Assembly (NCBI RefSeq): GCF_000372725.1
Contig: NW_005202427.1
Coordinates: 1,152,459-1,216,458 of the forward strand
From: Emiliania huxleyi CCMP1516
Taxonomy: Eukaryota
Length of the DNA: 64,000 bases
Direction of reading: 5' to 3'
Under the pieces are notes generated by a model. That model was not told the DNA's origin. It saw only the letters and a list, made by a program, of their open reading frames with translations, and ran no database searches. Below are positions 6,273 to 60,300 of the stretch, one piece after another (position 1 is the stretch's first letter; every line of letters starts with the position of its first letter). A program made the position numbers and the translations under genes.

Positions 6273-6574
6273 TTTCGGTTGGGTAACGAATTCCTCACAG
6301 ACGCACTCCACACAAGCACAACTTCTCTCACAAACACAATGAACCTACCAAGGCGGAGGCGCGCGTGTGGGGGAGACGCAGACGGGGCACGGCCCGTTGT
6401 GTTTTGTGGGCGCGCGACTCCAGTGAGGGAGGGTGAGACGATCGAGGGGTCCCGTACACGCGGAATCGACCCTATCCGCTCAAGTAGAGTGGTTGAAGGG
6501 GACGGCCGCGAAAGAAGATGCATTTTTCATCACAAGCGAAGGAGAACACAGGCGGGAGAAGGCAAGTGCACACG

Positions 6575-7792
6575 ATGCAGGCCGAGGCAAACCTCCGAGC
6601 GTCGCTGGCGGCGGGCACTCAGCACAGCGTCTTCATCGACGGCGAGGGCCGGCTCTTCTCGTACGGCAACGGACTTTATTTGGAGACCGATGAGATCGAG
6701 GTCGGCGAAGATCTCGAGTCCGAGGAGGCCCTGGCTGTCAATGGGCTGCTCGGTCACGGCGAGGGCGTGACGCGGCTCAACACGCCGACCCGCCTCCCGT
6801 CGATGGGAGGCGAGCGCGCCGTGAGCGTGTCGGCTGGAGCGGTCCACAGCCTCGCCATCGCCGCCGACGGCACCGTTTGGAGCTGGGGCTGTGCTTGCCG
6901 GCTGGGCCACGGCGACGACGAGAACCAGCTGCAGCCGAAGAAGATCGAGGCCTTCACCGGGCAGCGCGTCGTCACTGTCTCGGCGGGGTCGAATCACAGC
7001 CTCGCCATCACCGTCGACGGCGCTGTGTGGACCTGGGGCTTGGGCGGCCTCCCGCTGGGCACGTCCAACAACCTGCTGCCCAAGAAGATCGAGTCCATGG
7101 CGGGGCGGCGCGTGGTCGCTGTGTCGGCGGACCTCATGCACAGCCTCGCCATCACTACCGACGGCGGGGTGTGGAGCTGGGGCGAGGGATGGTCCGGCGT
7201 GCTGGGCCACGGTGACCGCGAGGACCAGCTGCTGCCCAAGAAGATTGAGGCCTTCGAGGGGGAGCGCGTCACCGCCGTGTCGGCGCAAAACAACCGAAGC
7301 GTCGCCGTCACCGCCGACGGCGCCGTCTGGTCGTGGGGCCTTAACCACGGCCGCGGCGTGCTGGGCCACGGCGACGAGCAGCGCCAGCTGCTGCCCAAGA
7401 AGATCGAGGGCCTGGCGGGCCAGCACGTCGTCGCTGTGTCGGCTGGAGCATTTCACAACCTCGCCCTCACCGCCGACGGCGCCGTCTGGAGCTGGGGCTG
7501 GGGAGACCACGGGGAGCTGGGCCACGGCGACGACAAGGACCAGCCGCCCAAGAAGGTCCAAGCCTTGGCGGGCCAGCGCGTCGTCGCCGTGTCGGCGGGA
7601 GGCGACCACAGCCTCGCCCGCACCGCTGACGGAGCCGTCTGGAGCTGGGGCTATGGAGGACACGGCCTGCTAGGCCACGGCGACGAGCAGAACCAGCTGC
7701 TGCCGAAGAAGATCGAGGGGTGGGTGGTGCGGCCGACCCCCAAGAAGAGGACGCGGGCCTCGGCGGCGTCTCCCAAGACGGCCGGGGTCTGA
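6575..7792 (+). CDS. RCC1-repeat beta-propeller protein (UVR8/HERC-like), single exon
   Basis: Repeated VSAG..HSLA.TADGAVWSWG.G..G.LGHGD...QLLPKKIE units. Confidence 0.93.
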   Translation: MQAEANLRASLAAGTQHSVFIDGEGRLFSYGNGLYLETDEIEVGEDLESEEALAVNGLLGHGEGVTRLNTPTRLPSMGGERAVSVSAGAVHSLAIAADGTVWSWGCACRLGHGDDENQLQPKKIEAFTGQRVVTVSAGSNHSLAITVDGAVWTWGLGGLPLGTSNNLLPKKIESMAGRRVVAVSADLMHSLAITTDGGVWSWGEGWSGVLGHGDREDQLLPKKIEAFEGERVTAVSAQNNRSVAVTADGAVWSWGLNHGRGVLGHGDEQRQLLPKKIEGLAGQHVVAVSAGAFHNLALTADGAVWSWGWGDHGELGHGDDKDQPPKKVQALAGQRVVAVSAGGDHSLARTADGAVWSWGYGGHGLLGHGDEQNQLLPKKIEGWVVRPTPKKRTRASAASPKTAGV

Positions 7793-10425: not shown

Positions 10426-11650
10426 TCAAACCCCCCATATGAGCATCCGCTCCTTCCTCCGCGCCTCCTCGCCCTCCACGTTTGTGCGCGCGAGCGCGTT
10501 CGACAACTCGTTCTGGTACGAACAGCACGCCACGCGCGCAGGTGCGCCTGCACGAGCTCCTTCACCACGTTTGCGGTGATCGGCAGGCTGGCGATCGAAC
10601 GGTCCGGCGCCGCAAAGTCGCGTCCGATGGCGGCGACGAGCGCGGCGCCGAGCTGCTTCACGTGCCGCTCCTGCAAGCCCGCGCTGAGCGGCTGCCGGTC
10701 CATCCCCGGGATTTGCTGCGAGAAGGCCATGCACAGTTCATCTTGGTGATGCAGTGGCTCACGTACGCCGTCAGGGCGACCGCCGGCGAGACGGGCAGCT
10801 TGTTGGAGGCGCCGCACTTTGCGCGCATCTCGAGCTCCTGCGTGGAGACGGCCGGTCCGTCCACGCCCGCTCGAGCCGCGTCATGAAGAGGCCCGCCGAC
10901 CGCTTCTCGTAGAGTTGCGGCTCGACGTCGCCGTCGATGAACGGGTCGAGGTACCGGCCGACCTGCAGCAGCGGGAGGGGGACGTGCCTGGGAAAGGTCT
11001 GGGAAGCGACTGGGAGGGGCCGAGCGGTGGTATGCGCAAGGAAGGAGGGCGTGTCTGGGAGTGGTCCGGAACGGTACGCGGTCGAGATGCGACGCAGGAC
11101 GAGGAATTGTGTCTAGGACACGTGAGCTGGGGGATGTGTCTCTCGGATGAGTCAGGAGACGGGTCGAGGTTGCACCTGCACGCAGAGCCAGTCGGAGACG
11201 GGGGCCGGCACGCCGGGCCCGGCACGAGCCCATCACGACCGCGGCGAGGAAGGAGAGGGGCGCCTGCTCCATGCTCGGCGGCTTGCCGCTGTCCATGTCG
11301 AGCGTCTTGAGGTCGGGCAGCTTCTTGAGGTCGGGCGGCGCCGCTCGCGCGCCCCCATCCGCTCGCGCAGCTCTGCTCGATATCGAGCAGCGCGTACTCC
11401 GCCTCCACCTCGAGCCGGTGCGCGTGCACGGCGGTCGCGCACAGGGTCGTTACGCGCGCCACCGCCCGTTTGCGGAAGGGCTCGGACAGCCCGGGGCGGG
11501 AGGCCTGCTCCATCCCCCCCACGAACTGCTGCTCCACGTCGTCGAGCACCGCCGCCAGGCAGCGCTGGATCGCCAGCGCCCTTGCGCGCGTCACCGAGCG
11601 GAGCGCGCCCGACGCCATCGAGCCGACGGCGGTGCCGACCTCCTCCTCGC
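10426..11650 (-). CDS. Putative multi-exon protein of unknown function
   Basis: Protein-like segments in alternating frames (EQQFVGGMEQ..., LKKLPDLKTLD, KQLGAALVAAIGRDF, SYQNELSNALAR...LIWGV*) separated by intron-like tracts. No family recognised; 5' end unclear. Confidence 0.4.
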
Positions 11651-12440
11651 GCGCACAACACCACAGGTCTCATCTCAGTCTAGCGACCTGCCTCCAGCTT
11701 CTCCACTGGCAGTCTCTCGCTACCACAGGCACACTGACAGGGGCGGCCGAGGCACACGCCGAGGGTGGCAGGGGCGGTGTGGCACCCTGAAGTTTTTTCT
11801 CTTCCGTTCCCGTTTGCGACAGGTTCCCCTCCGGGTTCCCCTCGGAGCTCGGTCAACCTCGCCGCCACGACTTGGTCAGTTGGTCTTAGCTACACACAAC
11901 ACCACAGGTTGTCCTCCAGCTTGTGCCCGCCCGCGGCGCGGCGAGCCTCTCTGCGCACCACTCCAGATACGGGCTCTCGCCCTGGCCGCGCGCCGCCCTT
12001 TTGCCTCGCGACACAGCGCACGTCAGCCGGAGCGCTCCGCCCGACGCCCGCGCTGACCTTGACCCTGTTCCCCCTGCCTCGCTCCGCAGGTGTGGGTCGA
12101 CGGCGCGGAGCAGCGGCCGCCCGCCCGCGTCCCCCGCCCCCGCCCGCCCGCCCCCGCCACGCCGCTGCATGCGCGCCGCCGCCCCGATGTCCCACACCCT
12201 CGCCGGCGACGCGCCGTCTCTGCGCGCCGCCGCCTCCTCCCCTCCACCCACACTGCGCCGCCTGCGCTTAGGCGCGTCGCTCGAGTGCCCTCACCGCCTG
12301 CCCCTCTCCGCTCGCAGGTGCGGCCACGGCCGGTCGAGCAGTCCCTCGCGCCGCGCCCCCATCCTGCCTCCGCCTCGCCACAACCACCCCGCTGCCCGAC
12401 CGCGCGCGCCCTCGCCCTCGTAGAGTCAACTCACGCGGTC

Positions 12441-13685
12441 ATGATGAAGCTCTACCTCGCGATCGTCGCGTCGCTCCTCACGCCCGTCCAGTCGGCCCCG
12501 ACCCGCCGCCAGTTGGGCATCTCAGGTGACACTTGCGATGTTACGGCGTGCGAGACGGCGTGCGCGGCGGTTGGCAATCCGTATGGCCCGTACGCTGGTC
12601 GCGGATCGATGGAGACTTGTGTCCATGGCGACTCCGCGTACGGGCCACAAGTCGGATGCAAGGGCTGTGCTTACGTCGATGATGGCCCCTCCACCCCGCC
12701 CGCCCCCTCCACCCCCCCGCCTTCGCCGCCCGCCCCCCCCTCCACCCCTTCGCCACCTTCGATGCCGCCCTCCCCGTCCCCTCCGCCTTCTCCGCCGCCG
12801 TCCCCCGGCGCCCCCATTGGTGGCGGCGGCGGCGGCGGTGGCGACGATCCCTGCTTCTCCCGCGGCACGTACGCGTGCCGCCTCCTCGACCCCAAGGCGC
12901 GCTCCCTAGGCGGCGAGTCGGACTAGCGAGGCGCCCATTCACACCCGTGCCCCCCCCCCCCCCGGCCCCAGGCCCCCGCCGCCGAGGCGTACGCCCAGTG
13001 CTTCCTCGGTGCCGCCGGCGACGCGGCGACGCGCGCCCCCATGTCCGAGCTCGCCGCGGGCGACACCGTGCTCTCCGACGCGGACACCGCCGCGCGCGTC
13101 GTCGTCAACCAGCACAAGGTCGAGGACGGCAAGGCCTCGCTCCTCATCACGCTCACGCACGCGCGCGGCTCGCTCGCGCTCACGCCCGACCACGTGCTCG
13201 AGCTCGACGGCAAGTTCATGCCTGCGCGCGAGGCGCACGTCGGCGCGGCCCTCTCCAACGGCGCGGTCATCGAGGCCATCTCGCACTCGCGCGGCGGCAT
13301 CATCAACCCCATCACCGTCACCGGCAAGATCCTCGCGGCGGCCGCCACCGGCGAGCCCGTGCTCGCGGCGACGGGCAACGAGTGGCTCGCCGACGTGATG
13401 CTCTCGGCCTACCCGAAGTACACCCTCTCGTACGCGCTCGCGGCCGCCTTCCCCGCCGCGGTGCAGGCCTACTACGACGGCGCGCTCGAGCCGCTCTTCA
13501 CCGCGGCCGTCCCGCACCTCACCAAGATCAAGGCCGCCGCGCCGGCGCCGCTCGTCGGCGTCATTCTCGTGGCGGGCGACGCGGCGCTCGCCACCGGCTT
13601 CGCCGCCTACTCGCTCGGCCTCAAGGGCGTCGCCACTCTCGCCGTGATCGCCGTGGCGGCCGCGCGCAAGGGCAAGAAGCCGTGA
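12441..13685 (+). CDS. Secreted/membrane protein with Hedgehog-type Hint autoprocessing domain; intron 12897-12971 (GC-AG)
   Basis: Signal peptide MMKLYLAIVASLL, Cys-rich module, Pro/Gly linker, then DDP|CFS, MSELAAGDTVLS, LTPDHVL, INPITVTGKILA and a hydrophobic C-tail. Confidence 0.82.
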
Positions 13686-13749
13686 GGCGCGCGCGGCCTG
13701 GCCGTCGGAGGTTTGTACAGCCGCTGGGCGGCGCAATAGTTGCCTCCAC

Positions 13750-13958
13750 GTATCGGAGAGAGGAGAAGGGAGGTGCAAGGGGCGTGCTCTCGTTCTGGTA
13801 GTCCGCCTGCCTCCAGCATGTCGTATCGGAGAGAGGAGAGGAGAGGTGCAAGGGGCGTGCGCTCGTTCTGGTAGTCCGCCTGCCTCCAGCATGTCGGATC
13901 GGTCGGAGAGGAGAGGGGTGCAAGGGGCGTGCTCGTTCTGGTAGTCCGCCTGCCTCTG
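13750..13958 (+). repeat. About 60-bp tandem repeat x3 in 3' region (second copy about 16475-16682)
   Basis: GGTGCAAGGGGCGTGCTCGTTCTGGTAGTCCGCCTGCCTC repeated. Confidence 0.9.
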
Positions 13959-14288
13959 AGCCTGACGGCGCGATCTGGTCGTTTTGTACATCGTATGTAA
14001 ATGGTGAGTGCCACCTGCCACTGAGCACACGTTGTATTGTGTAAAGAGATAGTTCAGAAACGAGATATAGAGTTCTGAGTTGTAGCAACAGCCGGCAGGG
14101 GCGGTCACTTGGAGCACTTGGAGAGTGCAGTCGGCAACCACCAACCTCACATCCAGGGCCGGGGAGCTTGAGGAGCGCACCCAGCGAGCCGGATGATCGG
14201 CATCGGGCTACGGGCAGGAAAGCCCTGACCCCTAGGGGGGGGTGCGCGTTCGCAGGGCAAGGGCCTTAAAGTAAACATGGGTCTCCGA

Positions 14289-14487
14289 AATAAATAAATA
14301 AATAAAATGGGCACGCCAAACGAGGGGTGGGAGAGGGACAGGGTCCCCACCTGCACGAGCAGGATCTTGGAAGGACGATCAGGGACACAGGGGAACGGGA
14401 GCGGGGAGCGCATCGCGACACGGAGGGGGGCTGGGCAGGGTTCACCCACACGACAGGGTCCCAGGGATTCCTCTCTCGTATAGGACA
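14289..14487 (-). mobile_element. Short retroposon-like insertion with (TTTA)n tail and 10-bp TSD GGGTCTCCGA
   Basis: TSD copies at 14279-14288 and 14488-14497. The paralogous site 16988-16997 is empty. Confidence 0.8.
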
Positions 14488-15168
14488 GGGTCTCCGAGGG
14501 TTGGCTCCGCGCGGGGCGTCACATTTTTCTTCAGGTTCCCGTTTGCGACATGTTCCCCTCGCTCGAGCTCGGTCAACTTCGCCGGGCATCGCCTACACCA
14601 CTTGGTCTCTACCACAACGCCACAGGTCCAGCTTGTGCCCGCCCCGCCCGCGGCGCGGCGAGCCTCTCTGCGCACCACTCCAGATACGGGCTCTCGCCCT
14701 GGCCGCGCGCCGCCCTTTTGCCTCGCGAGACAGCGCACGTCAGCCGGAGAGCGCTCCGCCCGACGCCCGCGCTGACCTTGACCCTGCTGCTCCTGCCTCT
14801 GCTCCGCAGGTGTGGGTCGACGGCGCGGAGCAGCGGCCGCCCGCCCGCGTCCCCCGCCCCCGCCCGCCCGCCCCCGCCACGCCGCTGCATGCGCGCCGCC
14901 GCCCCGATGTCCCACACCCTCGCCGGCGGCGCGCCATCTCTGCGCGCCGCCGCCTCCTCCCCTCCACCCACACTGCGCCGCCTGCGCTTGGGCGCGTCGC
15001 TCGAGTGCCCTCACCGCCTGCCCCCCTCCGCTCGCAGGTGCGGCCACGGCCGGTCGAGCAGTCCCTCGCGCCGCGCCCCCTCATCCTGCCTCGCCAGCCA
15101 CCACGCCGCCGTGCGACCACACCCTACCACCGCTTGCGCCCCCCGTTCGCAGGTCAGTGAACGCGGTC

Positions 15169-16355
15169 ATGATGATGCTTACCTCCGCGATCCTCGCGCT
15201 CGCCGCCTCTGCCGCCGGCCAGGAGAAGCCCGGCCACGAGCTCCTCTTTGCCGACATTCCGGCGGACGTGTGCTGGAGCCAGACCGACTGCGAGCCCGCG
15301 GTGAAGGTCTTCAAGGACGGCACCGTGATGTTGGGACTCTACCACTTCTTCTGGGGAGGTACGACCCATGCATTGATGGGCATGTACAACAAGGCTGTGG
15401 CCGGATCGACCCACACGGCGATGGGCATGTGGAACACGGTTATGGCCGGATCGACCCATACGGCGATGGGCATGTGGAACACGGTTATGGGCGGAATGGC
15501 CCATACGGTGATGGGCTGGAACAACACGATTATGGGCGGGACGGCCGCGACCGTGATGGGTTACAAAACGGTCGCCACTGGAGGTATGGCCCAGACCGCG
15601 ATGGGTTACGAGACGAATGCGATTGGCATGGCTTCTTTGTCGACGGGTTACAAGACGGCGGCGTTTGACATGGCGGTTTCGATGGGAAACGGCACGTTGG
15701 CAAAGGGCATTTCCTCGGTGCCCCCCCCCCCCCCCCCCCGCCCCAAACCTGGGGCCCCACACCTCACCCCCTGCCCGCCTTTTTGCCCGCTGCAGGTCTC
15801 GATGGGCCCCAAGACCCAAGCAGAAAGTTTTGCGGAGGTTCCCCCCCCCCCCCCCCCCCACCCCCCTTCAAGCAGCGTGGCCTGCACAGCTGCCCTAACC
15901 TCCCCTCCCCTCCCCTCTCAATGAAGGTAGTGATCGGTCAGTTCAACGAGCGCAATCCCATCGGCGAATGCGACCAGTTTGGACCCGGCAAACCCTACCC
16001 GGGCCCGGCGCCCGAGGGTTGCGCCTCGAGGGGCTGGCCCGAGCGCCTCGAGGGTTTCGAGATGGACATCAACGGCACGATGGTCACGGTGCCCGCGGCG
16101 TGGCAAGGCTACGATGCGGTCTTCCGCGTGGGTGTCGGCACCGGCGAATCCGACCGCAAGGACGCGATCACTGTGTACAAGAACGGCACCGTCGTCATCG
16201 GTGACCTCCGCACCCCCGGCCCTGGCCGCCGCCTCTCCGCCTCCGACGGCGCGCTCGAGAAGAAGCTCGAGGCGACGGAGAAGAAGCTCGAGGCGACGGA
16301 GAAGAAGCTCGCCGCGCTGGAGGCGGCAGTCATGGCGCTCACGCGCAACCCGTGA
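15169..16355 (+). CDS. Secreted protein with YadA-head/Hep-Hag-like repeats and C-terminal coiled coil; introns 15718-15795 and 15838-15926
   Basis: Signal peptide, 14-aa repeats (T.MG..NT..GG, AMGYETNAIG, SMGNGTLAKG), VIGQFN, VFRVGVGT.ESDRKDAITVYKNG, (LEATEKK)n. Confidence 0.75.
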
Positions 16356-17442
16356 GAGCGCTGGCCTGGACGTGATCGCCGTGGCGGCCGCGCGCAAGGG
16401 CAAGAAGCCGTGAGGCGCGCGCGGCCTGGCCGTCGGAGGTCTGTAGCCGCTGGCAATAGTTGCCATGTGTATGGGAGAGAGGAGAGGAGAGGTGCAAGGG
16501 GCGTGCTCTCGTTCTGGTAGTCCGCCTGCCTCCAGCATGTCGTATCGGAGAGAGGAGAGGAGAGGTCAGAGGTGCAAGGGGCGTGCGCTCGTTCTGGTAG
16601 TCCGCCTGCCTCCAGCATGTCGGATCGGTCGGAGAGGAGAGGGGTGCAAGGGGCGTGCTCGTTCTGGTAGTCCGCCTGCCTCTGAGCCTGACGGCGCGAT
16701 CTGGTCGTTTTGTACATCGTATGTAAATGGTGAGTGCCACTGAGCACAGCCTGTATTGTGTAAAGAGATAGTTCAGATACGAGATATAGAGTTCTGAGTT
16801 GTAGCAACAGCCGGCAGGGGCGGTCACTTGGAGCACTTGGAGTGCAGTCGGCAACCTCACATCCGGGGCCGGGGAGCTGAGGAGCGCACCCAGCGAGCCG
16901 GATGATCGGCATCGGGCTACGGGCAGGAAAGCCCTGACCCCTAGGGGGGGGTGCGCGTTCGCAGGGCAAGGGCCTTAAAGTAAACATGGGTCTCCGAGGG
17001 TTGGCTCCGCGCGGGGCGTCACATTTTTCTTCAGGTTCCCGTTTGCGACATGTTCCCCTCGCTCGAGCTCGGTCAACTTCGCCGGGCATCGCCTACACCA
17101 CTTGGTCTCTACCACAACGCCACAGGTCCAGCTTGTGCCCGAGATAGAGTTGTAGCAACACAAAAACATAGAGATAAGAGAACGCCAGCAACCCTATGAT
17201 TCATCATTCAACCCAAACAAGGGATGGGAAGGAGGACAGGGCCTCACAGAGGATTACGCCACAGTGTCGTTTGAGTCGACAGTAAATCTCCCACAGCCCA
17301 CGTAAATCCGTCTTTTTCAGACACCCGGAGCCCTCCGCGGCCGCTTCTACGCCGGCGAAGCACCATCAAGCTGCTGTACGGCCCCGGCATCGCCTCCCCT
17401 GGCTTAGCTCTCAGTCAAGATATTGTGCACATGGGTGGCCTC

Positions 17443-20086
17443 CGTCCGGCCGTGCCCCGCGGGGGCGCGGTCGGCACCAGAAGGGGGTTGATACGTTCTC
17501 TAGAGACGACGTAGTCGTGGACGGCCGCAATCACAATGGACGGACACGACGAGACGAGTGTGAAAGCACGGAGGCAACAAAACACACTAGGGTTCGGGAG
17601 AAGGCTAGGGTTAGGGAGAGAGTGCCTGACGGGCTTCGGCCCGACGTCCCCCCCCTCGACTTAGTCGAGTAACGACATAGTCGAGTAACCGTGCACTCTC
17701 GGATCACGATGCGTTAGGGAACGTGATGTTCATGACCGGAGATTTGATGTTCATGATCTTGTCACGAAGCTCGAAGAACCGTTTGGGCTTGAGCGGCTTC
17801 GTGAAGAAGTCGGCGAGGTTGGCGTCGCTACGCACGAAGGGGACGCAGAGGCGGTGCGCCTCGATGGCCTCGCGGATGTAGAAGTGGCGTCGCTCGACGT
17901 GCTTGAGCTTGCCATGGTGCTCCGGGTTGTAGGCGGAGGCGATGGCGGCCTGGTTGTCGACGTAAAGCTTCGTCGGCGGGCGCGGGGAGCCATCGGGGAG
18001 CGCGTCGACCTCCTCCTGCAGACGCCGGTACTGCTCGACGTCCTTGGTCGCCTCCGAGGCGGACATGATCTCGGCCTGGCAGGAAGAGAGGGAGACGGTG
18101 GGTTGCTGTTGAACCCTCCAGTCAAGCGTGGCGCCCCACAGGCGGACGAGCCAGCCAGACGTGGATCGACGGGCCGACCAGTCGGCGTCGCTGAAGGCGT
18201 GGAGCTCGTCGTCGGCGGCCGACTCGCCCCGACCGTTGTAGGTAAGACCAAGGTCAGGGTACTCGCGGAGGTAGCACAGGACGCAGTACACCTCCTCGAA
18301 CAGAGCGGGTGTGGGCTTCGCCATGGCCCGGCAGAGGAGGCCGACGGGGAGCGCGATGTCGGGGCGCGTGTTCGAGACGAGGTAGAGAAGAGCCCCGAGG
18401 CAGCTCTGGAAGAGGCGGACGACGCGCAGCTCCCTCTCGCTGGTGTCGTCGGTGGCCGCTTGAACTCGCTCTGCGATGCTGAGGGTGAACGGCGTGTTGT
18501 TGGAGTGACGGGCGCCGGGCTCGGCGGGGTTCGGGAGCTCGGCGATGATCTGGTCGAGGTACTCGTCGAGGAGCTTGCGCACGTACGGCCCCTGCCCGAC
18601 GTGAACACCGCCCTCGGCGAGTGGGGTGACCTGGACGTTGAGGATGTCGGAGAGCGGGCCCTCGTCCTCAGATTTCCACGAGGCGTCGATGTCGCGAACG
18701 AACTGCGCGTAGAGCGAGTCGGAGACAAGAGCCCCCTCGGCGTCGTACTCGGCGTCGCGCTTGTAGAAGATGATGAGATCGTCGACGTAGACTCCGATGA
18801 TGAGCTCGTCGTCCTCAGTGGTGATGCGGTAGATGCAGGGGTCCTCCTTGGACGGGATGAGGCCGGCGCCTCCTTCGTCGCGGGGACGCTCGAGCCAAGC
18901 AAAGAAAGCGCGCTGGAAGCGCCGCCCCGCCTGCTTCATGCCGTAGAGGGGCTTGAGGATGAGGCAGAGCTTGGGCTTGCCGTTCTCGTCGAGAGCGTTG
19001 GCGTGGCCGGCGGGCTGATGCATGAAGGCGATCTCGCCGTCCTCGAGAACTCCCTGGAGGAAGGCGGCGACAAGGTCGCGCCTACGAGCCTTGAGCCCGC
19101 GGCGGGCAGCAATGTTGAGAAGGAGGCGAAGGGAGGGCATGCGCAGGGTGGAGCAGAACGTCTGGTTGTAGTTCTCGCCGAACCTCTGGCTGGACCCGTC
19201 GAGACAGCAGCGGGCTTTGTGTTTGCCATTTCGCTTGGTCTTGTAGACCCAAGTGGCACGAGTGGTAGTGAACTCTTTGCCGTGCTGCAGGGCGATTCGT
19301 CGGGCCTCGGCGTAGGTGACGTAGCACCATGTGGAGCCGGCCTCGACGCACTCCTCCATGGTGCACTGGCCACGGATGAAGCGCTCGACAAAGCGGGGAT
19401 CGTCTGCTTTCCCGCTATGGTTGCCAAGCTCCTCGAGCTCGGCGGTGAACCAGGCTGCGTCGCCTCGTTGCGCGTCCTGTCGCATGGCTTGCCCGTGGCC
19501 GGATGGATCGCGCGGTCCGGCAGAGGTACGTGCAGCCAAGATGTGGAGCCCGGGTCGGGGGTGGCCAAATTTCACGATGGCACCAGAGGCAGGTGTGAGG
19601 CCTCTGTCGAGGGCGGCGTTGACAGGAAAGTCACTGTCGGAGCAATGTCTGAGCCTCCCGGGAGTACTCGAGGCATCGCCGACAGAGGGGTCGGGGGTGG
19701 AGCCGGCACGGCGTCCGACGACCCCGTGGTGCTCTGGCTTCTTCAGAAGCGGCTTTTGCGATGACTGCGACATCTTTGGCGGGGACCTCTCCGAGGCTCC
19801 CCGCCATCGATTCGCCGGCCATATCTGGGATAGCGTGAAGGGACTCCCCCAAAGTGCTGGTCGTGACCAGTTGACGCTGCCACGTCCGGCCGTGCCCCGC
19901 GGGGGCGCGGTCGGCACCAGAAGGGGGTTGATACGTTCTCTAGAGACGACGTAGTCGTGGACGGCCGCAATCACAATGGACGGACACGACGAGACGAGTG
20001 TGAAAGCACGGAGGCAACAAAACACACTAGGGTTCGGGAGAAGGCTAGGGTTAGGGAGAGAGTGCCTGACGGGCTTCGGCCCGACG
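17443..20086 (-). mobile_element. Ty1/copia LTR retrotransposon, internally deleted, 2644 bp
   Basis: Identical 204-bp LTRs (17443-17646, 19883-20086), 5-bp TSD GCCTC (17438-17442, 20087-20091), TGG-initiated PBS-like site after the 5' LTR, GAGGGGGGG PPT before the 3' LTR. Confidence 0.95.
17704..19773 (-). CDS. Copia reverse transcriptase-RNase H ORF
   Basis: KAR, DL..AFLQG, LYGMKQAGR, YVDDL, FSDADW, RRSTSG, SSCQAE, YVDNQAAI, KHVERRHFYIRE, NLADFFTKPL. Start approximate (MSQSSQ). Confidence 0.93.
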   Translation of the reverse strand: MSQSSQKPLLKKPEHHGVVGRRAGSTPDPSVGDASSTPGRLRHCSDSDFPVNAALDRGLTPASGAIVKFGHPRPGLHILAARTSAGPRDPSGHGQAMRQDAQRGDAAWFTAELEELGNHSGKADDPRFVERFIRGQCTMEECVEAGSTWCYVTYAEARRIALQHGKEFTTTRATWVYKTKRNGKHKARCCLDGSSQRFGENYNQTFCSTLRMPSLRLLLNIAARRGLKARRRDLVAAFLQGVLEDGEIAFMHQPAGHANALDENGKPKLCLILKPLYGMKQAGRRFQRAFFAWLERPRDEGGAGLIPSKEDPCIYRITTEDDELIIGVYVDDLIIFYKRDAEYDAEGALVSDSLYAQFVRDIDASWKSEDEGPLSDILNVQVTPLAEGGVHVGQGPYVRKLLDEYLDQIIAELPNPAEPGARHSNNTPFTLSIAERVQAATDDTSERELRVVRLFQSCLGALLYLVSNTRPDIALPVGLLCRAMAKPTPALFEEVYCVLCYLREYPDLGLTYNGRGESAADDELHAFSDADWSARRSTSGWLVRLWGATLDWRVQQQPTVSLSSCQAEIMSASEATKDVEQYRRLQEEVDALPDGSPRPPTKLYVDNQAAIASAYNPEHHGKLKHVERRHFYIREAIEAHRLCVPFVRSDANLADFFTKPLKPKRFFELRDKIMNIKSPVMNITFPNAS

Positions 20087-20091
20087 GCCTC

Positions 20092-22499: not shown

Positions 22500-23267
22500 C
22501 TGTGGTGCACAACCTCGCCCTCACCGCCGACGGCAGCGTCTGGAGCGCTGGGGCCATATGGACACCGGGGCAAGCTGGGCCACGGCGACGAGCAGAACCA
22601 GCTGCTGCCGAAGAAGATCGAGGCCTTGGCGGGTCAGCGCGTCCTCGCTGTGTCAGCAGGGCAGGAGCACAGCATGGCAGTCACCGCCGACGGCGCCGTC
22701 TGGAGCTGGGGCTTTGGCGAGGATGGCAAGCTGGGCCACGGCGACCTGCAGGTCCAGCTGCTGCCCAAGAAGATCGAGGCCTTGGCGGGGCGGCGCGTCG
22801 TCGCTGCATCCGCTGGAGCGCACGACAGCTTCGCCATCACCGCCGAGGGCGGTGTCTGGAGCTGGGGCTGGGGCCACTCCGGCCTGGGCCACGGTGGCGT
22901 GCAGAACCAGCTCCTGCCCAAGAAGATCGACGCCTTTGCTGGCCAGCGCGTCGTCGCTGTGTCGGCTGGAGACATCCACAGCATCGCTCTCACCGCCGAC
23001 GGCAGCATCTGGAGCTGGGGTGAGGGATTCTTTGGCCCGTTGGGCCACGGCGACCAGCAGATCCAGCTACTGCCGAAGAAGATTGAGGCCTTGGCTGGGC
23101 GGCGCGTCGTCGCCGTGTCGGCTGGATCCACCCATAGCCTCGCCTTCACCGCCGATGGAAGCTTCTGGAGCTGGGGCCATGGAGCCTATGGTCGATTGGG
23201 ACAAGGAGAAGACCTGTCGAACCAGCTGCGGCCCAAAAAGATCGAGGCGTGGCGGCTGGGGCAGTGA
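22500..23267 (+). pseudogene. RCC1-repeat paralog, 5'-truncated, with a degenerate first repeat
   Basis: About 4.5 RCC1 repeats similar to 6575-7792; begins mid-repeat without ATG context, just after a retroposon tail. Confidence 0.7.
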
Positions 23268-23988
23268 GCGAAGGGGGAGCAGAGCAGGTTGTCAATGAGC
23301 CTGTCTGGGGGGGGGGCAATGCCTCGCCGTCCTCGCATGAATCTCGAAGGCGGCTCCAAAGGTGTGTCTGTCCATGCGCAATGGAAAGGGGGGGGGGGGG
23401 GGCACCTACGGCTTTAGAGCTGTGCCGTGTGCCGTGACGTGTGCGGTCTGTCTCTGTGTGACGTGACGCACGTCTCACGTGTATTTGCTCTCGTCGGAGA
23501 TGATCAATTTGATAAAAAATACACCCACGCGAGAGAGGGCGGCATTGCACTCGCGACTTGGGAAGCTTTGGGGGGTCTACAGTGCACAGAGGCAAGAGGC
23601 CAAACCGGCCAGGGGGCAGGCAGCCAGAGACACTGAGGGCTACCCGAGCCCATCGGAGCGGCCCCTTGCCACGCCCCGGGTGAGGCCACGCAGATGCACA
23701 TGCGGACCGAGCGCTTGGAGAAAGGTGGAGGACGAGCGAGCAGAGCAGCCGCGGCGCGCGTATGGTCTCGATCTGACAGAGCGGACGATGAGCGAGGATG
23801 CACCGTGCAGAATGGCTCTGGGTTGGACAAAACCCTAGGTATAAAAAGGAAATAATTTATGCACGGTGGGTGGGACGGTCGAGGTAAATTTCCTGTCTTT
23901 TTATTCGCACACACGTCATCAACAGTGTTTGTATCGCGGCGGGGGGCCGCTCCTTCGCCGCTCCTTCCTCACCGCTGCTCTCACGGAA

Positions 23989-49110: not shown

Positions 49111-49405
49111 GCCTGCGGCGAGGGCGGTCGAGTGCACGGAGCTAAGTGCCTCGCCGTCCTCGCAGGAGTCGCCAGGCGGCTCCCGTTGTGTACCTGTGTT
49201 AGTGCCTGCGCCAGAGCATGCTCCCAGTTTGGATGGAACCCAGCCAGTCCCGTGCCCAGTGTCGTTCGTGCGAGGGAGCTAAACAGACAAACCAAACGAG
49301 GGATGGACGCCCACGTAGGTGAAATTCTTTATTCCGCCGCGGGGCGCCGCGAATGAACTCTCCTCTTTCTCCTTGGACGCAAACGGTTTTCTTCTTCCTG
49401 GCGGC

Positions 49406-51049
49406 ATGAGCGGCGCCATCCTCCCAACCCGCCTCGCCGACCTGGCTCGGGGCGACCTGGCCTCGCTGCGCGCCTTCCTCTCCGGGCGGCGGACGCGCGG
49501 CACGTCGCTCGCGGCCCAGCTCGACGCGCGGCTCGACACCGAGAGGCAGGACACGCTGCTCACCTGGGCCGCTCGGCACGGGCAGGCCGAGGGGGCGCGG
49601 CTGCTGCTCGAGGGCGGCGCGAGCGTCGGGGCGACGACTGGCGGCGGCGCTTCCGCGCTGTATATCACGTGCCAAGAGGGGCAGATTGAGTGCGCCCGGC
49701 TGCTCGTCGAGGCTGGCGCGGCGACCGACCAAGCAGACGCTGGAGGCCGCACGCCGCTGTTCATCGCGAGCGAGAAGGGCCACGTCGAGATCGCCCGGCT
49801 GCTGCGCGACGCTGGCGCTGGCATCAACCAAGCCAAGCAGTGCGGCGCCACGCCGCTGCTCATGGCGAGCCAGCAGGGCCACCTCGAGTGCGCCCGGCTG
49901 CTCCTCGAGGCTGGCGCGGCGGTCAACCAAGCCAAGCAGAACGGCGCCACGCCGCTGAACATCGCGTGCCAGAAGGGCCACCTCGAGATCGCCCGGCTGC
50001 TCCTCAAGGCTGGCGCGGCGGTCAGCCAAGCCGCGGCGAACGGCGCCACGCCGCTGTTCATGGCGAGCCAGAACAACCACCTCGAGATCGCCCGGCTGCT
50101 GCTCGAGGCTGGCGCAGCGGTCAACCAAGCGATGAACGGCGGCGTCACGCCGCTGTCCATCGCGTGCCAGCAGGGCCACCTCGAGACCGCCTGGCTGCTC
50201 CTCGAGGCTGGCGCGGCGGTCAACCAAGCCATGGGTGACGGCGCCACGCCGCTGTACATCGCGTGCCAGCAGGGCCACCTCGGGTGCGTTCGGCTGCTCC
50301 TCGAGGCTGGCGCGGCGATCGACCAAGCCCATGAGAACGGCGTCACGCCGCTGTACGTCGCGTGCCAGAACAACCACCCCGAGACCGCCCGGCTGCTCCT
50401 CGAGGCTGGCGCGGCGATCGACCAAGCCCGCAACAACGGCGCCACGCCGCTGTTCATGGCGTGCCAGCAGGGCCAGCTCGAGTGCGTTCGGTTGCTTCTC
50501 GAGGCTGGCGCGGCGATCGACCAAGCCAGGCAGGACGGCGCCACGCCGCTGATCATGGCATGCTTCAACGGCCACCTCGAGGTCGCCAAGCTCCTATCCT
50601 CCTACGGCGCCTCCCGCGCCGCTACGCCCTTCGGCACGCCCGAGGAGGCCGCAAACCGTGAAGGCCACGCCGACCTCGCCGCCTGGCTGGTCGCCAGCCG
50701 CGGCTGGACGCCGCTCGCGCACCTTGAGACCCTCACCGCCGCCCGCGCCACCGCCCTCCTGCGCAGCGGTGCAAGCCTGCACGAGGGCGAGCCGACGCCG
50801 CTGCGGCGCGCCGCGGGCGGCGAGGGCGAGGCGGCGGCGCTGATCCGGCGGGCGGCGGCGCCGTGGTCGCCGGCAAGCCACTCGCTCTTCCCCGCGGCGG
50901 CCCGCGCGCGGGCGGCGCTCCTCGTCCTCTCGCTCTACGAGATCCACGAGCGGTACCACCTCGACTCGGCCGGAGCCACGAACGGCATCGCGGCGCTCGA
51001 CTTTGGCCACTGCGTCTTGGGCTTCGCCATCGCGCGCGAGACGGAGTAG
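49406..51049 (+). CDS. Ankyrin-repeat protein (about 11 repeats), single exon
   Basis: 33-aa units G.TPL..A.Q.GH.E.ARLLLEAGAA.NQA. Confidence 0.95.
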   Translation: MSGAILPTRLADLARGDLASLRAFLSGRRTRGTSLAAQLDARLDTERQDTLLTWAARHGQAEGARLLLEGGASVGATTGGGASALYITCQEGQIECARLLVEAGAATDQADAGGRTPLFIASEKGHVEIARLLRDAGAGINQAKQCGATPLLMASQQGHLECARLLLEAGAAVNQAKQNGATPLNIACQKGHLEIARLLLKAGAAVSQAAANGATPLFMASQNNHLEIARLLLEAGAAVNQAMNGGVTPLSIACQQGHLETAWLLLEAGAAVNQAMGDGATPLYIACQQGHLGCVRLLLEAGAAIDQAHENGVTPLYVACQNNHPETARLLLEAGAAIDQARNNGATPLFMACQQGQLECVRLLLEAGAAIDQARQDGATPLIMACFNGHLEVAKLLSSYGASRAATPFGTPEEAANREGHADLAAWLVASRGWTPLAHLETLTAARATALLRSGASLHEGEPTPLRRAAGGEGEAAALIRRAAAPWSPASHSLFPAAARARAALLVLSLYEIHERYHLDSAGATNGIAALDFGHCVLGFAIARETE

Positions 51050-57300: not shown

Positions 57301-60300
57301 CGTGCTGGCACCAGGAACCTTCTAGGAACCTTCTTGGAACCTTCTAGGCGGGCGAGGAGTCGGACGCCGCGCTGCGCGTGTTGCAGTTCGAGGCGACCCT
57401 CGTGGTGGACGTGCAGGCGTACCGCGTCCTCTCGGGCTTGCTGCAGCTGTGGGCGCGCTTCCCCACCTGCGACCCGCCTGCCAAGCTCGACGCGGTGCTG
57501 CGCGTCGCGCTCGACCTGCTCCTCTCTCTCGCGCTCAACGTGGCGCTCTGGTTCTCGCTCCGCGACCAGCACCTGCACCACTGGGCGATGGCGCTGCTGC
57601 TCTCGATCGCCGTCTTCGTGCGGCCGACCCTGTCCAGCCTGCGCTTCCTCGTGGTGCGGCCGGGCGGCGGCGGCGGCGGCGGCGGAAGCAGTGGTCAGCC
57701 CAGTCTGGGGCGCGAGCGGCTGCTCTCGCTGTTTGGCATCGAGGTGAATGCACTGCGATTGCACTGCTCTCGCTGTTTGACATCGTTAATTCCCTGCGAA
57801 TTGCCTGCGAATTGCCTGCTAACTCTAACTGCTCGCTGTTTGGCATCGAGGTTGCCAACGGGCCGCTCCCCGCGAGGCACGTCCGGCCGACGAGCTGGTG
57901 AAGCACTCAATCAATGGACTGATGAGTGGCTGCTACTAACCATAGGCACGTCCGGCCGACGAGCTGGAGCGCGCTCGCTTTCTGGCTGACGCTGTTCAGC
58001 GTGCACTGCCTGCTGGTGCAGCACTACATCGCGGACGCGCTCGTCGTCGACACGCTCGGCCTGCTCTACTCCTACTTTGGGCGAGCACCTAGAAGGTTCC
58101 AAGAAGGTTCCTAGAAGGTTCCTAGGCCTGCTCTACTCGTACTTTGGGCGCTCGCTCACCGGCAGCTCCGGCATCGGCCTCGGCCAGCTGTTTGTGCTGC
58201 TCCTCTGCATCTGGGTGCCGGTCATCCTCTTCTTCCACCGGGAGGAACCTTCTAGGAACCTTCTTGGAACCTTCTAGGTGCCGGTCATCCTCTTCTTCCT
58301 CGTGAGCTTCTCGCTCACCTTCACACTCTGGGTGCTCGTCGTCGGGCTCTGTCGCGGGCTCGGCTCCCTCCGCATCGCACCCGAGCTCGGCCTGCCGCAG
58401 CTGCTCGCCGCCGACCGTGGACAGAACCTTCTAGGACCCTTCTTGGAACCTGCTAGGCCTGCCGCAGCTGCTCGCCGCCCACTTTGACCCGGCGGCCGAC
58501 CGCTTCGAGCAACGCTGGCTCGCCAGCCGTCCGGCCCGGCTGCCCCCCAGCCCGGTCCCTGCCCAGCGAGGGTTGCGGGCGAGCCCGTCCTTTGCACCGA
58601 CTGCGCGCGGGGAGGGTGGCCGTGGCTCGCCAAATGTGATTGCCGAGGAGGCTGACGAGGCGGAGGAGACGATGATGGCGGCGGCGGCGGAGGAGGAGGC
58701 GGAGAAAGAGCTTGCGGAGGAGGAGGCGGAGGAAGAGGCTGCGGAGGAGCAGTTGCTGGGCGAGCTCGCCAAGGGGGGGGCGTGGGCCGTGTCGGCGGGG
58801 GGGCGCTCGGTCTCGCTCCCAGCAGTCGCCAATGGGTCGCGAGACGGCGCCCTTCCGCCAGACGAGGACGCGCCCGCGGACTTGTCGGGGCTACGGCCGG
58901 CCGCCCAGTCCGGGCGCCCCTCCCGTGGTGGGACATCTCCTCACGGCCCGGCTCCTGTGAGGCGTAGGCTGCTCGGTCGGCTGCCTGCGCGGGGCGGCTG
59001 GGGCTTTGCGCAGTGTTGGAACACGATGCTCCACGAGATGCGGCGGCAGGATTTGGTCGACAACTCCGAGGAGACCCGGCTGCAGTTTGCGATCGTGCCG
59101 CGCGCCGTCCACCCGCCGCCGCCCGCTGCGGTCAGCGCCGCCGCCAGGGCGTGGCAAGAGCGGCCGCCGGTGCCGGGCAGTCTGCCGCCCCTGCCGCGCG
59201 CCGAGGCTGCGCCCGACGGCACGGCATTGCCGCTGCTTCTCCCGCCGCCGCTCGGGTCTCTCAAGCGCGCGCTCAGTGCGCTCCTCGCGGGCTGCCCCGT
59301 CGAGTCGCTCCCGACGCTCTGCCGCCTCTCGCTGGCGGGTGCGGCCGACATCGCGATGGCAGTTGTCTGGCCGCTGCTCGGCGCCGCGCACCAGCCCGAC
59401 GTGGCGCTCGCCCTCCGAGCCCTCGCCGCTGTCGTGCCCCCGATCGCGCCAGCCACCGATGCGTCTGCCGCCGGCTCGGCCGGCCAGTCCCGCCCTTGCG
59501 GCGCGCTGCCGCCCGGCCTCCGCTCGGAGCGGGTGCTCTACGGGCTGCGCAAGGCGCTACAGCGGTGCGAGGCCTCCTCCCTCCACGAGCCGCCTCGGAG
59601 CCTCTCGGGACCTGTCTGTAGGCGCTCGTCGAGCGAATTCGTTCCTGCGAATGAGCACTGATAGACCACTCATAGAACTGTCTCAGGCGCTCGTCGAGCT
59701 GTGCGAGGCCATCTTCGCCATGATCGTCGCCTTTGATGGCCGCGCCGCCCGAGGCGTCGCTAACCCTAACCCTAACCCTAACCCTAACCCTAACCCTAAC
59801 CCTAACCCTAACCCTAACCCTGACCCTAACCCTAACCCTGACCCATACCCTAACCCTAACCCTAACCCTAACGCCGCCCGAGGCGTCGCGGCGCCTAACG
59901 GCTGATTAACTGTACTCAACTACTACTAACCACTCAGTAACTGTCTCGAGGCGACGCGGCGCCTAACGGCCGTCTCGCCAAGCGGTCGGCGAGCGTAGCG
60001 TGCCTGGCGTCGGCCGCATCGCACCCGCACGACAACGGGCTCGCCGCTAGACCGGCGGGCGGCGCCGGCGGGCTAGAGGGCAGCAACGCCGCGCAGGCGC
60101 CAACGGACGGCCCGCTCGAGTCGGGACAGAACGGTGGGGGTGGACTGCGAACGACGGAGCGGCCGCAGATGGGCGACGGCGGCGGCGGCGGCGGCGCCTC
60201 GGCCGGCTCGGGCGTCGGCTTGCGGCACGCGCTGCGCTCGCGCTCCTTTGGCGATTCGCTCTCGAGCTTGTCGCGCGTCGTCTCGCTCAAGGGGCTCTCG

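What the first reader, a model, noticed from the sequence alone, without database searches (positions are those of the whole stretch)
11920..16997. Cassette swap: near-identical gene frames carry two unrelated secreted cargos
Seen: two tandem units share upstream sequence, start context (ACGCGGTCATGATGA), similar signal-peptide DNA (CTCTACCTCGCGATCGTCGCG vs CTTACCTCCGCGATCCTCGCG) and 3' region. Unit 1 encodes a Hint protein and unit 2 a YadA-like protein. Unit 2 keeps the last codons of gene 1 (VIAVAAARKGKKP*, 16372-16413) as non-coding sequence after its own stop. Inference: the coding body was replaced inside a duplicated expression/secretion frame, which could be a surface-protein shuffling system or a way to domesticate a foreign gene.
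Basis: partly seen in the sequence, partly recalled or inferred. Interest (0 to 1): 0.75.

Follow-up and report, generated by a model that had tools for sequence, protein, structure and literature searches.

The report
Algal gene frame swaps secreted cargos
In a bloom-forming alga, nearly identical gene shells (upstream DNA, export signal, hedgehog-type tail predicted to cut itself) carry very different secreted protein heads, and one shell holds an unrelated adhesin-like gene; this likely comes from recombination between copies and would let the alga vary its surface proteins quickly.

Summary
The window is haptophyte DNA (Emiliania huxleyi by a named identical protein). Gene 1 is a secreted Hog (hedgehog-type Hint) protein; gene 2 is an unrelated, spliced, transcribed YadA-head-like beta-roll protein. 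It sits in a copy of gene 1's frame: 98% identical upstream core, homologous start and signal codons, probably the same stop context, then 70 of 70 identical bases of gene 1's tail. The frame-cargo junction is present in contigs of 4 of 4 DNA runs. The pair belongs to a larger family: four Hog genes share one 15-residue signal peptide and (three complete ones) a 98-99.6% identical Hog module, yet carry cysteine-rich heads of two unrelated types, only about 35% alike within a type. A methyltransferase gene also starts from the frame. The frames are patchworks, pointing to ectopic recombination or gene conversion. No dedicated recombinase was found. Gene 2 is not a freshly acquired foreign gene, the far 3' flank is a high-copy repeat, and the tandem adjacency was not bridged. 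Variable N-termini on protist Hog domains are known; the homogenised frame and whole-ORF replacement were not found in my searches. New variant; interest 0.6.

The parts
11656..11925 (+). Nest of repeat ends upstream of unit 1 (CAGG-started motifs; transposon origin inferred)
   Evidence: high depth in bin 11600-11796; 91% match upstream of L002 and a partial inverted copy behind the gene in L003
11926..12440 (+). 5' frame of unit 1 (likely promoter / 5' UTR with splice-acceptor-like sites)
   Evidence: 98% to unit 2 core, 86% to L002 over 719 columns; no Pfam or Rfam match
12441..12896 (+). Gene 1 exon 1: signal peptide, 6-Cys cargo, Pro/Ser-Gly linker, first Hint residues (Cys1 codon at 12852)
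   Evidence: translation; cargo present unchanged in DNA contig 12457-12810 of run X1
12897..12971 (+). Gene 1 intron, 75 nt, GC-AG
   Evidence: 75-nt skip in RNA contigs of 4 of 4 runs; these may come from any Hog paralogue
12972..13685 (+). Gene 1 exon 2: rest of Hint, helical C-terminal region, hydrophobic segment, basic tail
   Evidence: hedgehog Hint best hit by profile (E 1.3e-7) and fold (E 5e-6); hydrophobic windows 340-383
13686..14095 (+). 3' frame of unit 1 with three ~73-nt repeats
   Evidence: 97% to unit 2; internal repeats
14096..14489 (.). High-copy repeat; 14289-14497 is flanked by a 10-nt direct repeat and is missing from the second copy
   Evidence: summed depth 3,600-379,000 against tens to hundreds in the genes; alignment
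14524..15168 (+). 5' frame of unit 2
15169..15717 (+). Gene 2 exon 1: signal peptide whose first ~11 codons derive from the Hog frame, then beta-roll repeats
   Evidence: contigs 15051/15063-15427/15431 in 4 of 4 DNA runs; 100% to P0033
15796..15837 (+). Gene 2 exon 2 (42 nt)
   Evidence: RNA contigs of X10, X11, X12 join 15711 to 15925 with 46 letters between, as both splices predict
15927..16355 (+). Gene 2 exon 3: connector, RRL motif, coiled coil, Pro-stop
16346..16372 (+). Gene 2 stop context, likely an older diverged copy of the Hog stop context
   Evidence: 24 of 29 columns match in register with gene 1's stop; 2 of 9,625 background tiles score as high
16371..16440 (+). Copy of the last 13 Hog codons, stop and UTR start, now non-coding
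   Evidence: 70 of 70 identical; covered by RNA contigs
16441..16997 (+). 3' frame of unit 2 and high-copy repeat
16988..17141 (+). Third, truncated copy of the start of the unit 2 frame
   Evidence: 154 of 154 identical to 14488-14641

Best explanation
This is a small family of near-identical gene frames for secreted hedgehog-type (Hog) proteins in which the cargo is likely exchanged and diversified by ectopic recombination and gene conversion between copies, and unit 2 is a copy whose whole coding body is now an unrelated beta-roll gene. Shown: shared upstream DNA, signal peptide, Hog module and 3' end; at least four different Cys-rich cargos of two unrelated types; a beta-roll ORF between Hog-derived start codons and the Hog tail; splicing and presence in RNA libraries. 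Inferred: crossovers fall at the end of the signal or pro-peptide and in the Pro/Gly linker; the beta-roll capture happened once, reusing the Hog start and probably the Hog stop, then duplicated, and later conversion refreshed the flanks (98% and 100% layers outside an older, more diverged layer), with a slip that duplicated the tail. Predicted function: the membrane-anchored Hog cleaves at Pro-Cys and releases the variable head, possibly joined to a sterol or other alcohol, as a surface or secreted recognition or defence protein; gene 2 would be co-regulated and secreted as a fibrous trimer.
For: Identical 15-residue signal peptide in gene 1, P0036, P0054 and L002 (14 residues in P0054, which lacks one leading Met); Hog 250-254 of 255 residues identical among the three complete ones. 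Cargo pairs: gene 1/P0036 35% over 52 columns and P0054/L002 37% over 137 columns including a shared pro-peptide (0 of 1,000 shuffles each); the four cross-type pairs are not significant (78, 659, 309, 765 of 1,000). L002 DNA matches the frame to the end of the signal peptide, loses similarity, and resumes at 99% in the Gly linker and on into the intron. Non-coding flanks are as conserved as the Hog, which protein-level selection does not explain. Three-way alignment of unit 1, unit 2 and L002 switches partners along the frame. Four NCBI-sourced Hog proteins on four contigs of different length. GC3: signal 1.0, Hog exon 0.98, cargos 0.70 and 0.79. A DNA contig in X8 follows unit 1 from 12331 to 12490 and then runs 116 letters into other sequence. 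L001 and L003 follow the frame exactly for 71 and 52 nt, to their contig ends, then enter a FkbM methyltransferase gene. In a second clade of Hogs, near-identical modules carry unrelated heads: P0065/P0067 100%, P0015/P0016 98.5%. Catalytic Cys1 and TxxH kept; His aligned to hedgehog's general base position 46, a swap reported to keep activity (PMC9163320, passages).
Against: No whole genome was available, so copy number, a cargo reservoir and allele-versus-paralogue status are untested; P0036, P0054 and L002 come from other samples and could be alleles or sister species. Only 3 metagenome loci were found, and two of them share just 52-72 nt with the frame. Exact-copy RNA contigs reach only 25-30 letters past the 3' junction (X10, X11, X15), short of the tool's 31-letter rule; the one contig that bridges it fully (X12, 16321-16435) is a variant with 9 gap letters. 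No listed contig joins unit 1 to unit 2. The second-clade proteins are gene calls on metagenome contigs and could be truncated by introns or be assembly chimeras. No synonymous-rate test was possible for proteins without DNA. Autoprocessing, lipid attachment, secretion and trimer formation are untested; the residue before Cys1 is Pro, not hedgehog's Gly.
Confidence: 0.62

Rival explanations
1. One-off accident: a tandem duplicate of a Hog gene was once interrupted by a beta-roll gene, and the other cargos reflect ordinary duplication and fast point mutation with no recurrent exchange.
For: All close beta-roll relatives share one signal peptide and one C-terminus, so one capture suffices. Cargos within a type are homologous. 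Fast-evolving Cys-rich N-termini on haptophyte Hogs are already described (PMC2362128, passages).
Against: Two unrelated cargo types and a methyltransferase use the same frame. About 65% protein divergence beside 98-99% identical non-coding flank and intron start, and a patchwork frame, need exchange or conversion.
Confidence: 0.18
2. The frame is the arm of a gene-carrying DNA transposon (Pack-MULE-like, perhaps hAT-type) that captures ORFs and supplies their promoter.
For: A nest of repeat ends precedes the frame in the window and in L002, and a partial inverted copy lies behind the methyltransferase in L003 (69% over 122 columns). A third frame start follows unit 2.
Against: No inverted copy of the tested end motif (TTTGCGACA) occurs in the window; no transposase was seen; upstream repeat junctions differ among unit 1, unit 2 and L002; frame depth is like Hog depth, hundreds of times below the neighbouring repeat. 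The hAT label is recalled, not tested.
Confidence: 0.12
3. A way to domesticate a newly acquired bacterial or viral adhesin gene.
For: The repeats resemble bacterial YadA-head / S74 tail-fibre-type proteins; GC3 of the repeats is 0.76.
Against: Two spliced introns; paralogues at 81%; relatives with another signal peptide and the same RRL-coiled-coil end (P0150, P0245); nearest Atlas cluster 91% eukaryotic, commonest Haptophyta. The family entered algae before it entered this frame.
Confidence: 0.05
4. Assembly artefact joining haplotypes or repeats.
For: A very high-copy repeat separates the units and no listed contig spans it; 16988-17141 is a perfect copy of 14488-14641.
Against: The signal-cargo junction of unit 2 is bridged in 4 of 4 DNA runs (3 of 3 if the best holder X1 is left out as a possible source) and in RNA contigs; a variant RNA contig carries the tail independently. 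An artefact could affect only the tandem order.
Confidence: 0.03

Closest known systems
Protist Hog proteins (Buerglin 2008, PMC2362128; passages and section 16 read, figures not seen)
   Same: Signal peptide, Cys-rich variable N-terminus, Hog domain; the paper reports three Pleurochrysis Hogs whose upstream region is less conserved than the Hog domain.
   Different: Here the Hog, signal peptide, intron start and non-coding flanks are 97-100% identical while cargos are about 35% alike or unrelated, a long hydrophobic C-terminus is present, and one frame has lost the Hog to an unrelated ORF. The passages searched contain no mention of Emiliania or gene conversion.
Conotoxin-type precursors (PMC3862624, abstract; mussel MgCRP-I, start of abstract in listing)
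   Same: Conserved signal and pro-region with a hypervariable Cys-rich mature part.
   Different: Conotoxin diversity is ascribed mainly to point mutation and indels in a separate mature-peptide exon; here signal and cargo share one exon, the conserved part also lies behind the cargo, and release would be by a built-in Hint.
Bacterial polymorphic toxins with pretoxin Hint domains (recalled, not tested)
   Same: Variable tip swapped next to a conserved self-cleaving Hint.
   Different: There the variable domain is C-terminal to the Hint and toxic; here it is N-terminal, eukaryotic, with no toxin domain or immunity gene seen.
Trimeric autotransporter adhesin heads (YadA, BpaC, UspA1) and S74 tail-fibre-type proteins
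   Same: Beta-roll repeats with 14-15 residue spacing, then a coiled coil.
   Different: No outer-membrane barrel and no S74 chaperone; eukaryotic signal peptide and introns.
Chimeric genes by promoter capture; Pack-MULEs (recalled)
   Same: A new ORF gains promoter, UTRs and signal peptide from a duplicated gene.
   Different: Both ends appear reused in frame, introns are kept, and no enclosing transposon ends were shown.

Membership tests
Hog (hedgehog-type Hint) proteins | Hint fold closest to hedgehog | tested here: met
   Profile: three hedgehog chains best, E 1.3e-7 to 1.7e-5, inteins 0.23-0.3. Model of P0036: hedgehog Hint ranks 1 and 2, E 5e-6, though inteins follow closely at 1e-5.
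Hog (hedgehog-type Hint) proteins | Cys1 and TxxH catalytic residues | tested here: met
   Cys in at least 90%, T and H invariant in 16 aligned proteins; gene 1 C138, T223-H226.
Hog (hedgehog-type Hint) proteins | General base at hedgehog position 46 | tested here: inconclusive
   His, invariant in 16 of 16, aligns with H46 of the D46H structure and D46 of wild type; D46H is reported active. The placement is by sequence profile only.
Hog (hedgehog-type Hint) proteins | Secreted N-terminal domain before the Hint | tested here: inconclusive
   Short hydrophobic N-terminus read by eye; no signal-peptide predictor was run, and a 19-residue hydropathy window stayed under threshold there.
Hog (hedgehog-type Hint) proteins | Motifs J, K, L / sterol recognition region | tested here: inconclusive
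   A helical C-terminal region follows the Hint; no SCY motif in the alignment; the paper notes Cys replacement in protist motif J.
Hog (hedgehog-type Hint) proteins | Autoproteolysis with sterol transfer | not testable with these tools
   Needs biochemistry.
Trimeric autotransporter adhesins | YadA-type beta-roll head | tested here: inconclusive
   Family profile hits such heads (best E 1e-46) and 22 of 30 aligned relatives match YadA_head, but gene 2 and P0034 themselves do not, and the monomer model gave only weak fold hits (best E 0.02).
Trimeric autotransporter adhesins | C-terminal beta-barrel anchor | tested here: not met
   The protein ends in a 40-residue helix; no anchor family hit.
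Trimeric autotransporter adhesins | Homotrimer | not tested
Gene-carrying DNA transposon (Pack-MULE-like) | Paired terminal inverted repeats and target-site duplication around the unit | tested here: inconclusive
   Not seen around units 1-2 with the motifs tried; a partial inverted end lies behind the gene in L003, whose contig lacks the far left end.
Programmed cassette systems (antigenic-variation type) | Silent cargo reservoir and one expression site | not testable with these tools
Several frames appear in RNA libraries, which argues against a single expression site.

The most novel reading that the evidence does not exclude
Haptophytes run a eukaryotic polymorphic display system: a conversion-homogenised promoter-signal-Hog-anchor frame into which domains (Cys-rich peptides, plastocyanin-like, MACPF, GDSL) and even whole genes are recurrently swapped, then released with a lipid tag by a natural broad-substrate (His46-type) hedgehog autoprocessor; strains would differ in repertoire, shaping virus, grazer or mate recognition in blooms.
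Probability: 0.3. Interest if true: 0.85.

Novelty: new variant of a known kind. Interest (0 to 1): 0.6.

Why it matters
It catches, within one algal species group, the process by which Hog domains gain new N-termini, a question raised for the origin of hedgehog itself (PMC2362128). It points to a hypervariable secreted family in a globally important bloom alga that the automatic gene models seen here miss: the named E. huxleyi Hog models lack the signal peptide and cargo. One pair of frame primers makes the repertoire directly measurable across strains and blooms. The natural His at the general-base position may give new self-cleaving, lipid-ligating modules.

Tried and rejected
No whole genome held. 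Frame or tail patterns found nothing in viral contigs or prokaryote genomes; P0034 and P0036 found no viral loci. No Rfam match in 11500-17700; no Pfam match for ORFs across the 5' frame, so the longer start of model P0033 is treated as a likely annotation artefact. Atlas gave no usable hit for the P0054 cargo. Earlier findings of the scan: nothing. Absence of cover, not used as evidence: gene 1's own cargo has little or no cover in the four RNA runs and low depth in DNA runs X5 and X9; this may mean strain-specific cargo but contigs cannot show absence. Depth ratios (Hog about 214 against cargo 34 in X1) are only a rough hint of several copies. RNA contigs of gene 2 start near 15150 in four runs; start site and splice acceptor could not be told apart. 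In one search P0014 was split at a wrong Cys-Phe, so its row is ignored; seven of 22 close pairs had N-termini too short to test. GC3 reference: 3 of 9 window ORFs gave 0.88-0.91; the other six (0.40-0.81) include a retroelement and ORFs that may cross introns or be out of frame. Paper searches with no relevant hit. No supplements were read; the alignment figures of PMC2362128 could not be seen and may already show part of the haptophyte pattern.
Full report
What is there. The window is GC-rich eukaryotic DNA. Exon 1 of gene 2 is 100% identical to P0033, which its sources name as an Emiliania huxleyi CCMP1516 protein. Two direct repeats frame the finding: 11796-12474 against 14524-15203 (87%) and 13643-14288 against 16371-16997 (93%); a third piece, 16988-17141, is identical to 14488-14641. 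The similarity is layered: 426 matches to 8 mismatches in the upstream core, a much more diverged 80 nt before the start, 39 matches in 44 columns over the start context and first signal codons, then nothing until 70 of 70 identical bases covering gene 1's last 13 codons, stop and UTR start.

Gene 1 (12441-12896, 12972-13685; 389 aa) reads as signal peptide, 6-Cys head, Pro/Ser and Gly linker, Hint, helical region, hydrophobic segment, basic tail. Pfam Hint is below its cut-off, but a 39-sequence profile hits hedgehog Hint chains best (E 1.3e-7), and a model of the near-identical P0036 is confident over the module and matches hedgehog first (E 5e-6). Cys1 and TxxH are kept; an invariant His aligns with hedgehog's general base, where the Asp-to-His swap is reported to keep activity and widen sterol range (PMC9163320 and PMC8529194, passages). 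Self-cleavage is therefore predicted, not shown.

Gene 2 (15169-15717, 15796-15837, 15927-16355; 339 aa) has 14-15 residue repeats, a connector, an RRL motif and a coiled coil. Its family profile hits trimeric autotransporter heads and 22 of 30 aligned relatives match YadA_head, 7 of 30 Peptidase_S74; it has no barrel anchor, so it is YadA-head-like, not an autotransporter. The two gene products are unrelated.

Is it real? Contigs of 4 of 4 DNA runs from four studies cover about 15055-15430 with one differing letter each, bridging the signal-cargo junction near 15203; they reach only 17-29 letters into the 98% core. X1 may be the source sample; the other three remain. In RNA libraries the 75-nt Hog intron is skipped in 4 of 4 runs and gene 2 is spliced as predicted in listed contigs of 3 of 4. 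At the 3' junction three exact contigs reach 25-30 letters past it, short of the 31-letter rule, and one variant contig in X12 bridges it fully with 9 gap letters. No listed piece links unit 1 to unit 2: the repeat between them has summed depths of 3,600-379,000 against tens to hundreds in the genes. So the chimeric gene is well supported, the tandem order only by the assembly.

The family. Four NCBI-sourced Hog proteins lie on four contigs of different length, three named as E. huxleyi; some may be alleles. Two full-length proteins, P0036 and P0054, and metagenome locus L002 (1 of 3 loci found) share gene 1's signal peptide; the Hog module is 250-254 of 255 residues identical. Their heads form two types, gene 1/P0036 (6-8 Cys, 35% over 52 columns) and P0054/L002 (12 Cys, 37% over 137 columns including a shared pro-peptide); the four cross-type comparisons are not significant (78-765 of 1,000 shuffles). 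In L002 DNA similarity stops just after the signal codons and returns at 99% in the Gly linker, continuing into the intron. A contig in X8 likewise leaves unit 1 at 12490. The other two loci, L001 and L003, match the frame exactly for 71 and 52 nt up to their contig ends and then enter a FkbM methyltransferase gene; this is a short overlap, seen twice. A second Hog clade, one member named as Phaeocystis antarctica, shows the same pattern: heads include plastocyanin-like and MACPF domains, a more distant Hog carries GDSL, and P0065/P0067 and P0015/P0016 pair unrelated heads with 100% and 98.5% identical modules. These are metagenome gene calls and may be truncated or chimeric.

Mechanism. Non-coding flanks and an intron start as conserved as the Hog, beside heads two-thirds diverged, cannot come from protein selection alone. 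The three frames that could be aligned swap nearest partner along their length, and third-position GC is 0.98-1.0 in the frame against 0.70-0.79 in two cargos, which fits biased conversion but also codon selection. For gene 2 the order of events is inferred. Its first 11 codons differ from the Hog signal by a compensating one-base loss and gain plus two substitutions (2 of 11,349 background tiles as good), and its stop context matches the Hog stop context in register at 24 of 29 columns (2 of 9,625). Close relatives share this start (P0034, P0214 and its cluster) or this end (P0034, P0085, P0088, P0234), and letters that fit P0034's insert occur in DNA run X5 and RNA run X12. A transposon-borne frame remains possible but paired ends were not seen in the window.

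Against the foreign-gene reading: introns, an 81% paralogue (264 of 324), relatives with another signal peptide and a nearest Atlas cluster that is 91% eukaryotic, mostly haptophyte among the few with a record. Distant relatives are bacterial-type repeat proteins, so an ancient transfer is plausible but precedes the capture.

Known and new. Buerglin 2008 (PMC2362128; passages and section 16) describes secreted protist Hogs with varied Cys-rich N-termini, including three from a haptophyte, and their ability to evolve new N-termini. Conserved signal with hypervariable mature peptide is known from conotoxins (PMC3862624, abstract). My searches found no paper on E. huxleyi Hog genes, their homogenised frame or whole-ORF replacement; the library lacks most subscription journals. 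Verdict: a real new variant of a known kind, recurrent cargo exchange likely, dedicated machinery unproven; interest 0.6.

Noticed in passing
window 17443-20089 (-): LTR retrotransposon piece with an RVT_2 ORF (17704-20025) and a 207-nt direct repeat at 99.5% identity, so a recent insertion right behind unit 2.
   Followed up: partly
window 14096-14489 and 16815-17012: Very high-copy repeat; DNA contigs join truncated copies to its start in many places, suggesting tandem arrays; a 209-nt piece between 10-nt direct repeats is missing from the second copy.
   Followed up: partly
L003 134-1081; L001: FkbM methyltransferase gene with a hydrophobic N-terminus and a Gly run, starting from the Hog frame; an intron present in L001 is absent from L003, and a partial inverted repeat end lies behind the gene in L003.
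   Followed up: partly
proteins P0080, P0065, P0081, P0083, P0015: Hog modules fused to MACPF, plastocyanin-like, GDSL and (weak hit) ephrin-receptor-like heads.
   Followed up: partly
proteins P0096, P0214, P0240, P0086, P0089: Beta-roll relatives in which the repeat-connector module is duplicated or rearranged, i.e. module shuffling inside the gene 2 family too.
   Followed up: no
window 17147-17160: 14-nt match to the 3' flank just before the high-copy repeat, right after the third frame copy ends; a possible scar of the duplication.
   Followed up: no
window 6518-7792 and about 22500-23300: Two related RCC1-repeat genes about 15 kb apart.
   Followed up: no
window 49319-51049: Ankyrin-repeat gene with 99-nt repeats.
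   Followed up: no
window 59748-59873: Internal telomere-like CCCTAA array.
   Followed up: no
window from 4378 and from 54267: Long 17-nt (41 overlapping hits) and 11-nt (37) minisatellite arrays, and many short 11-nt repeat runs on both strands.
   Followed up: no
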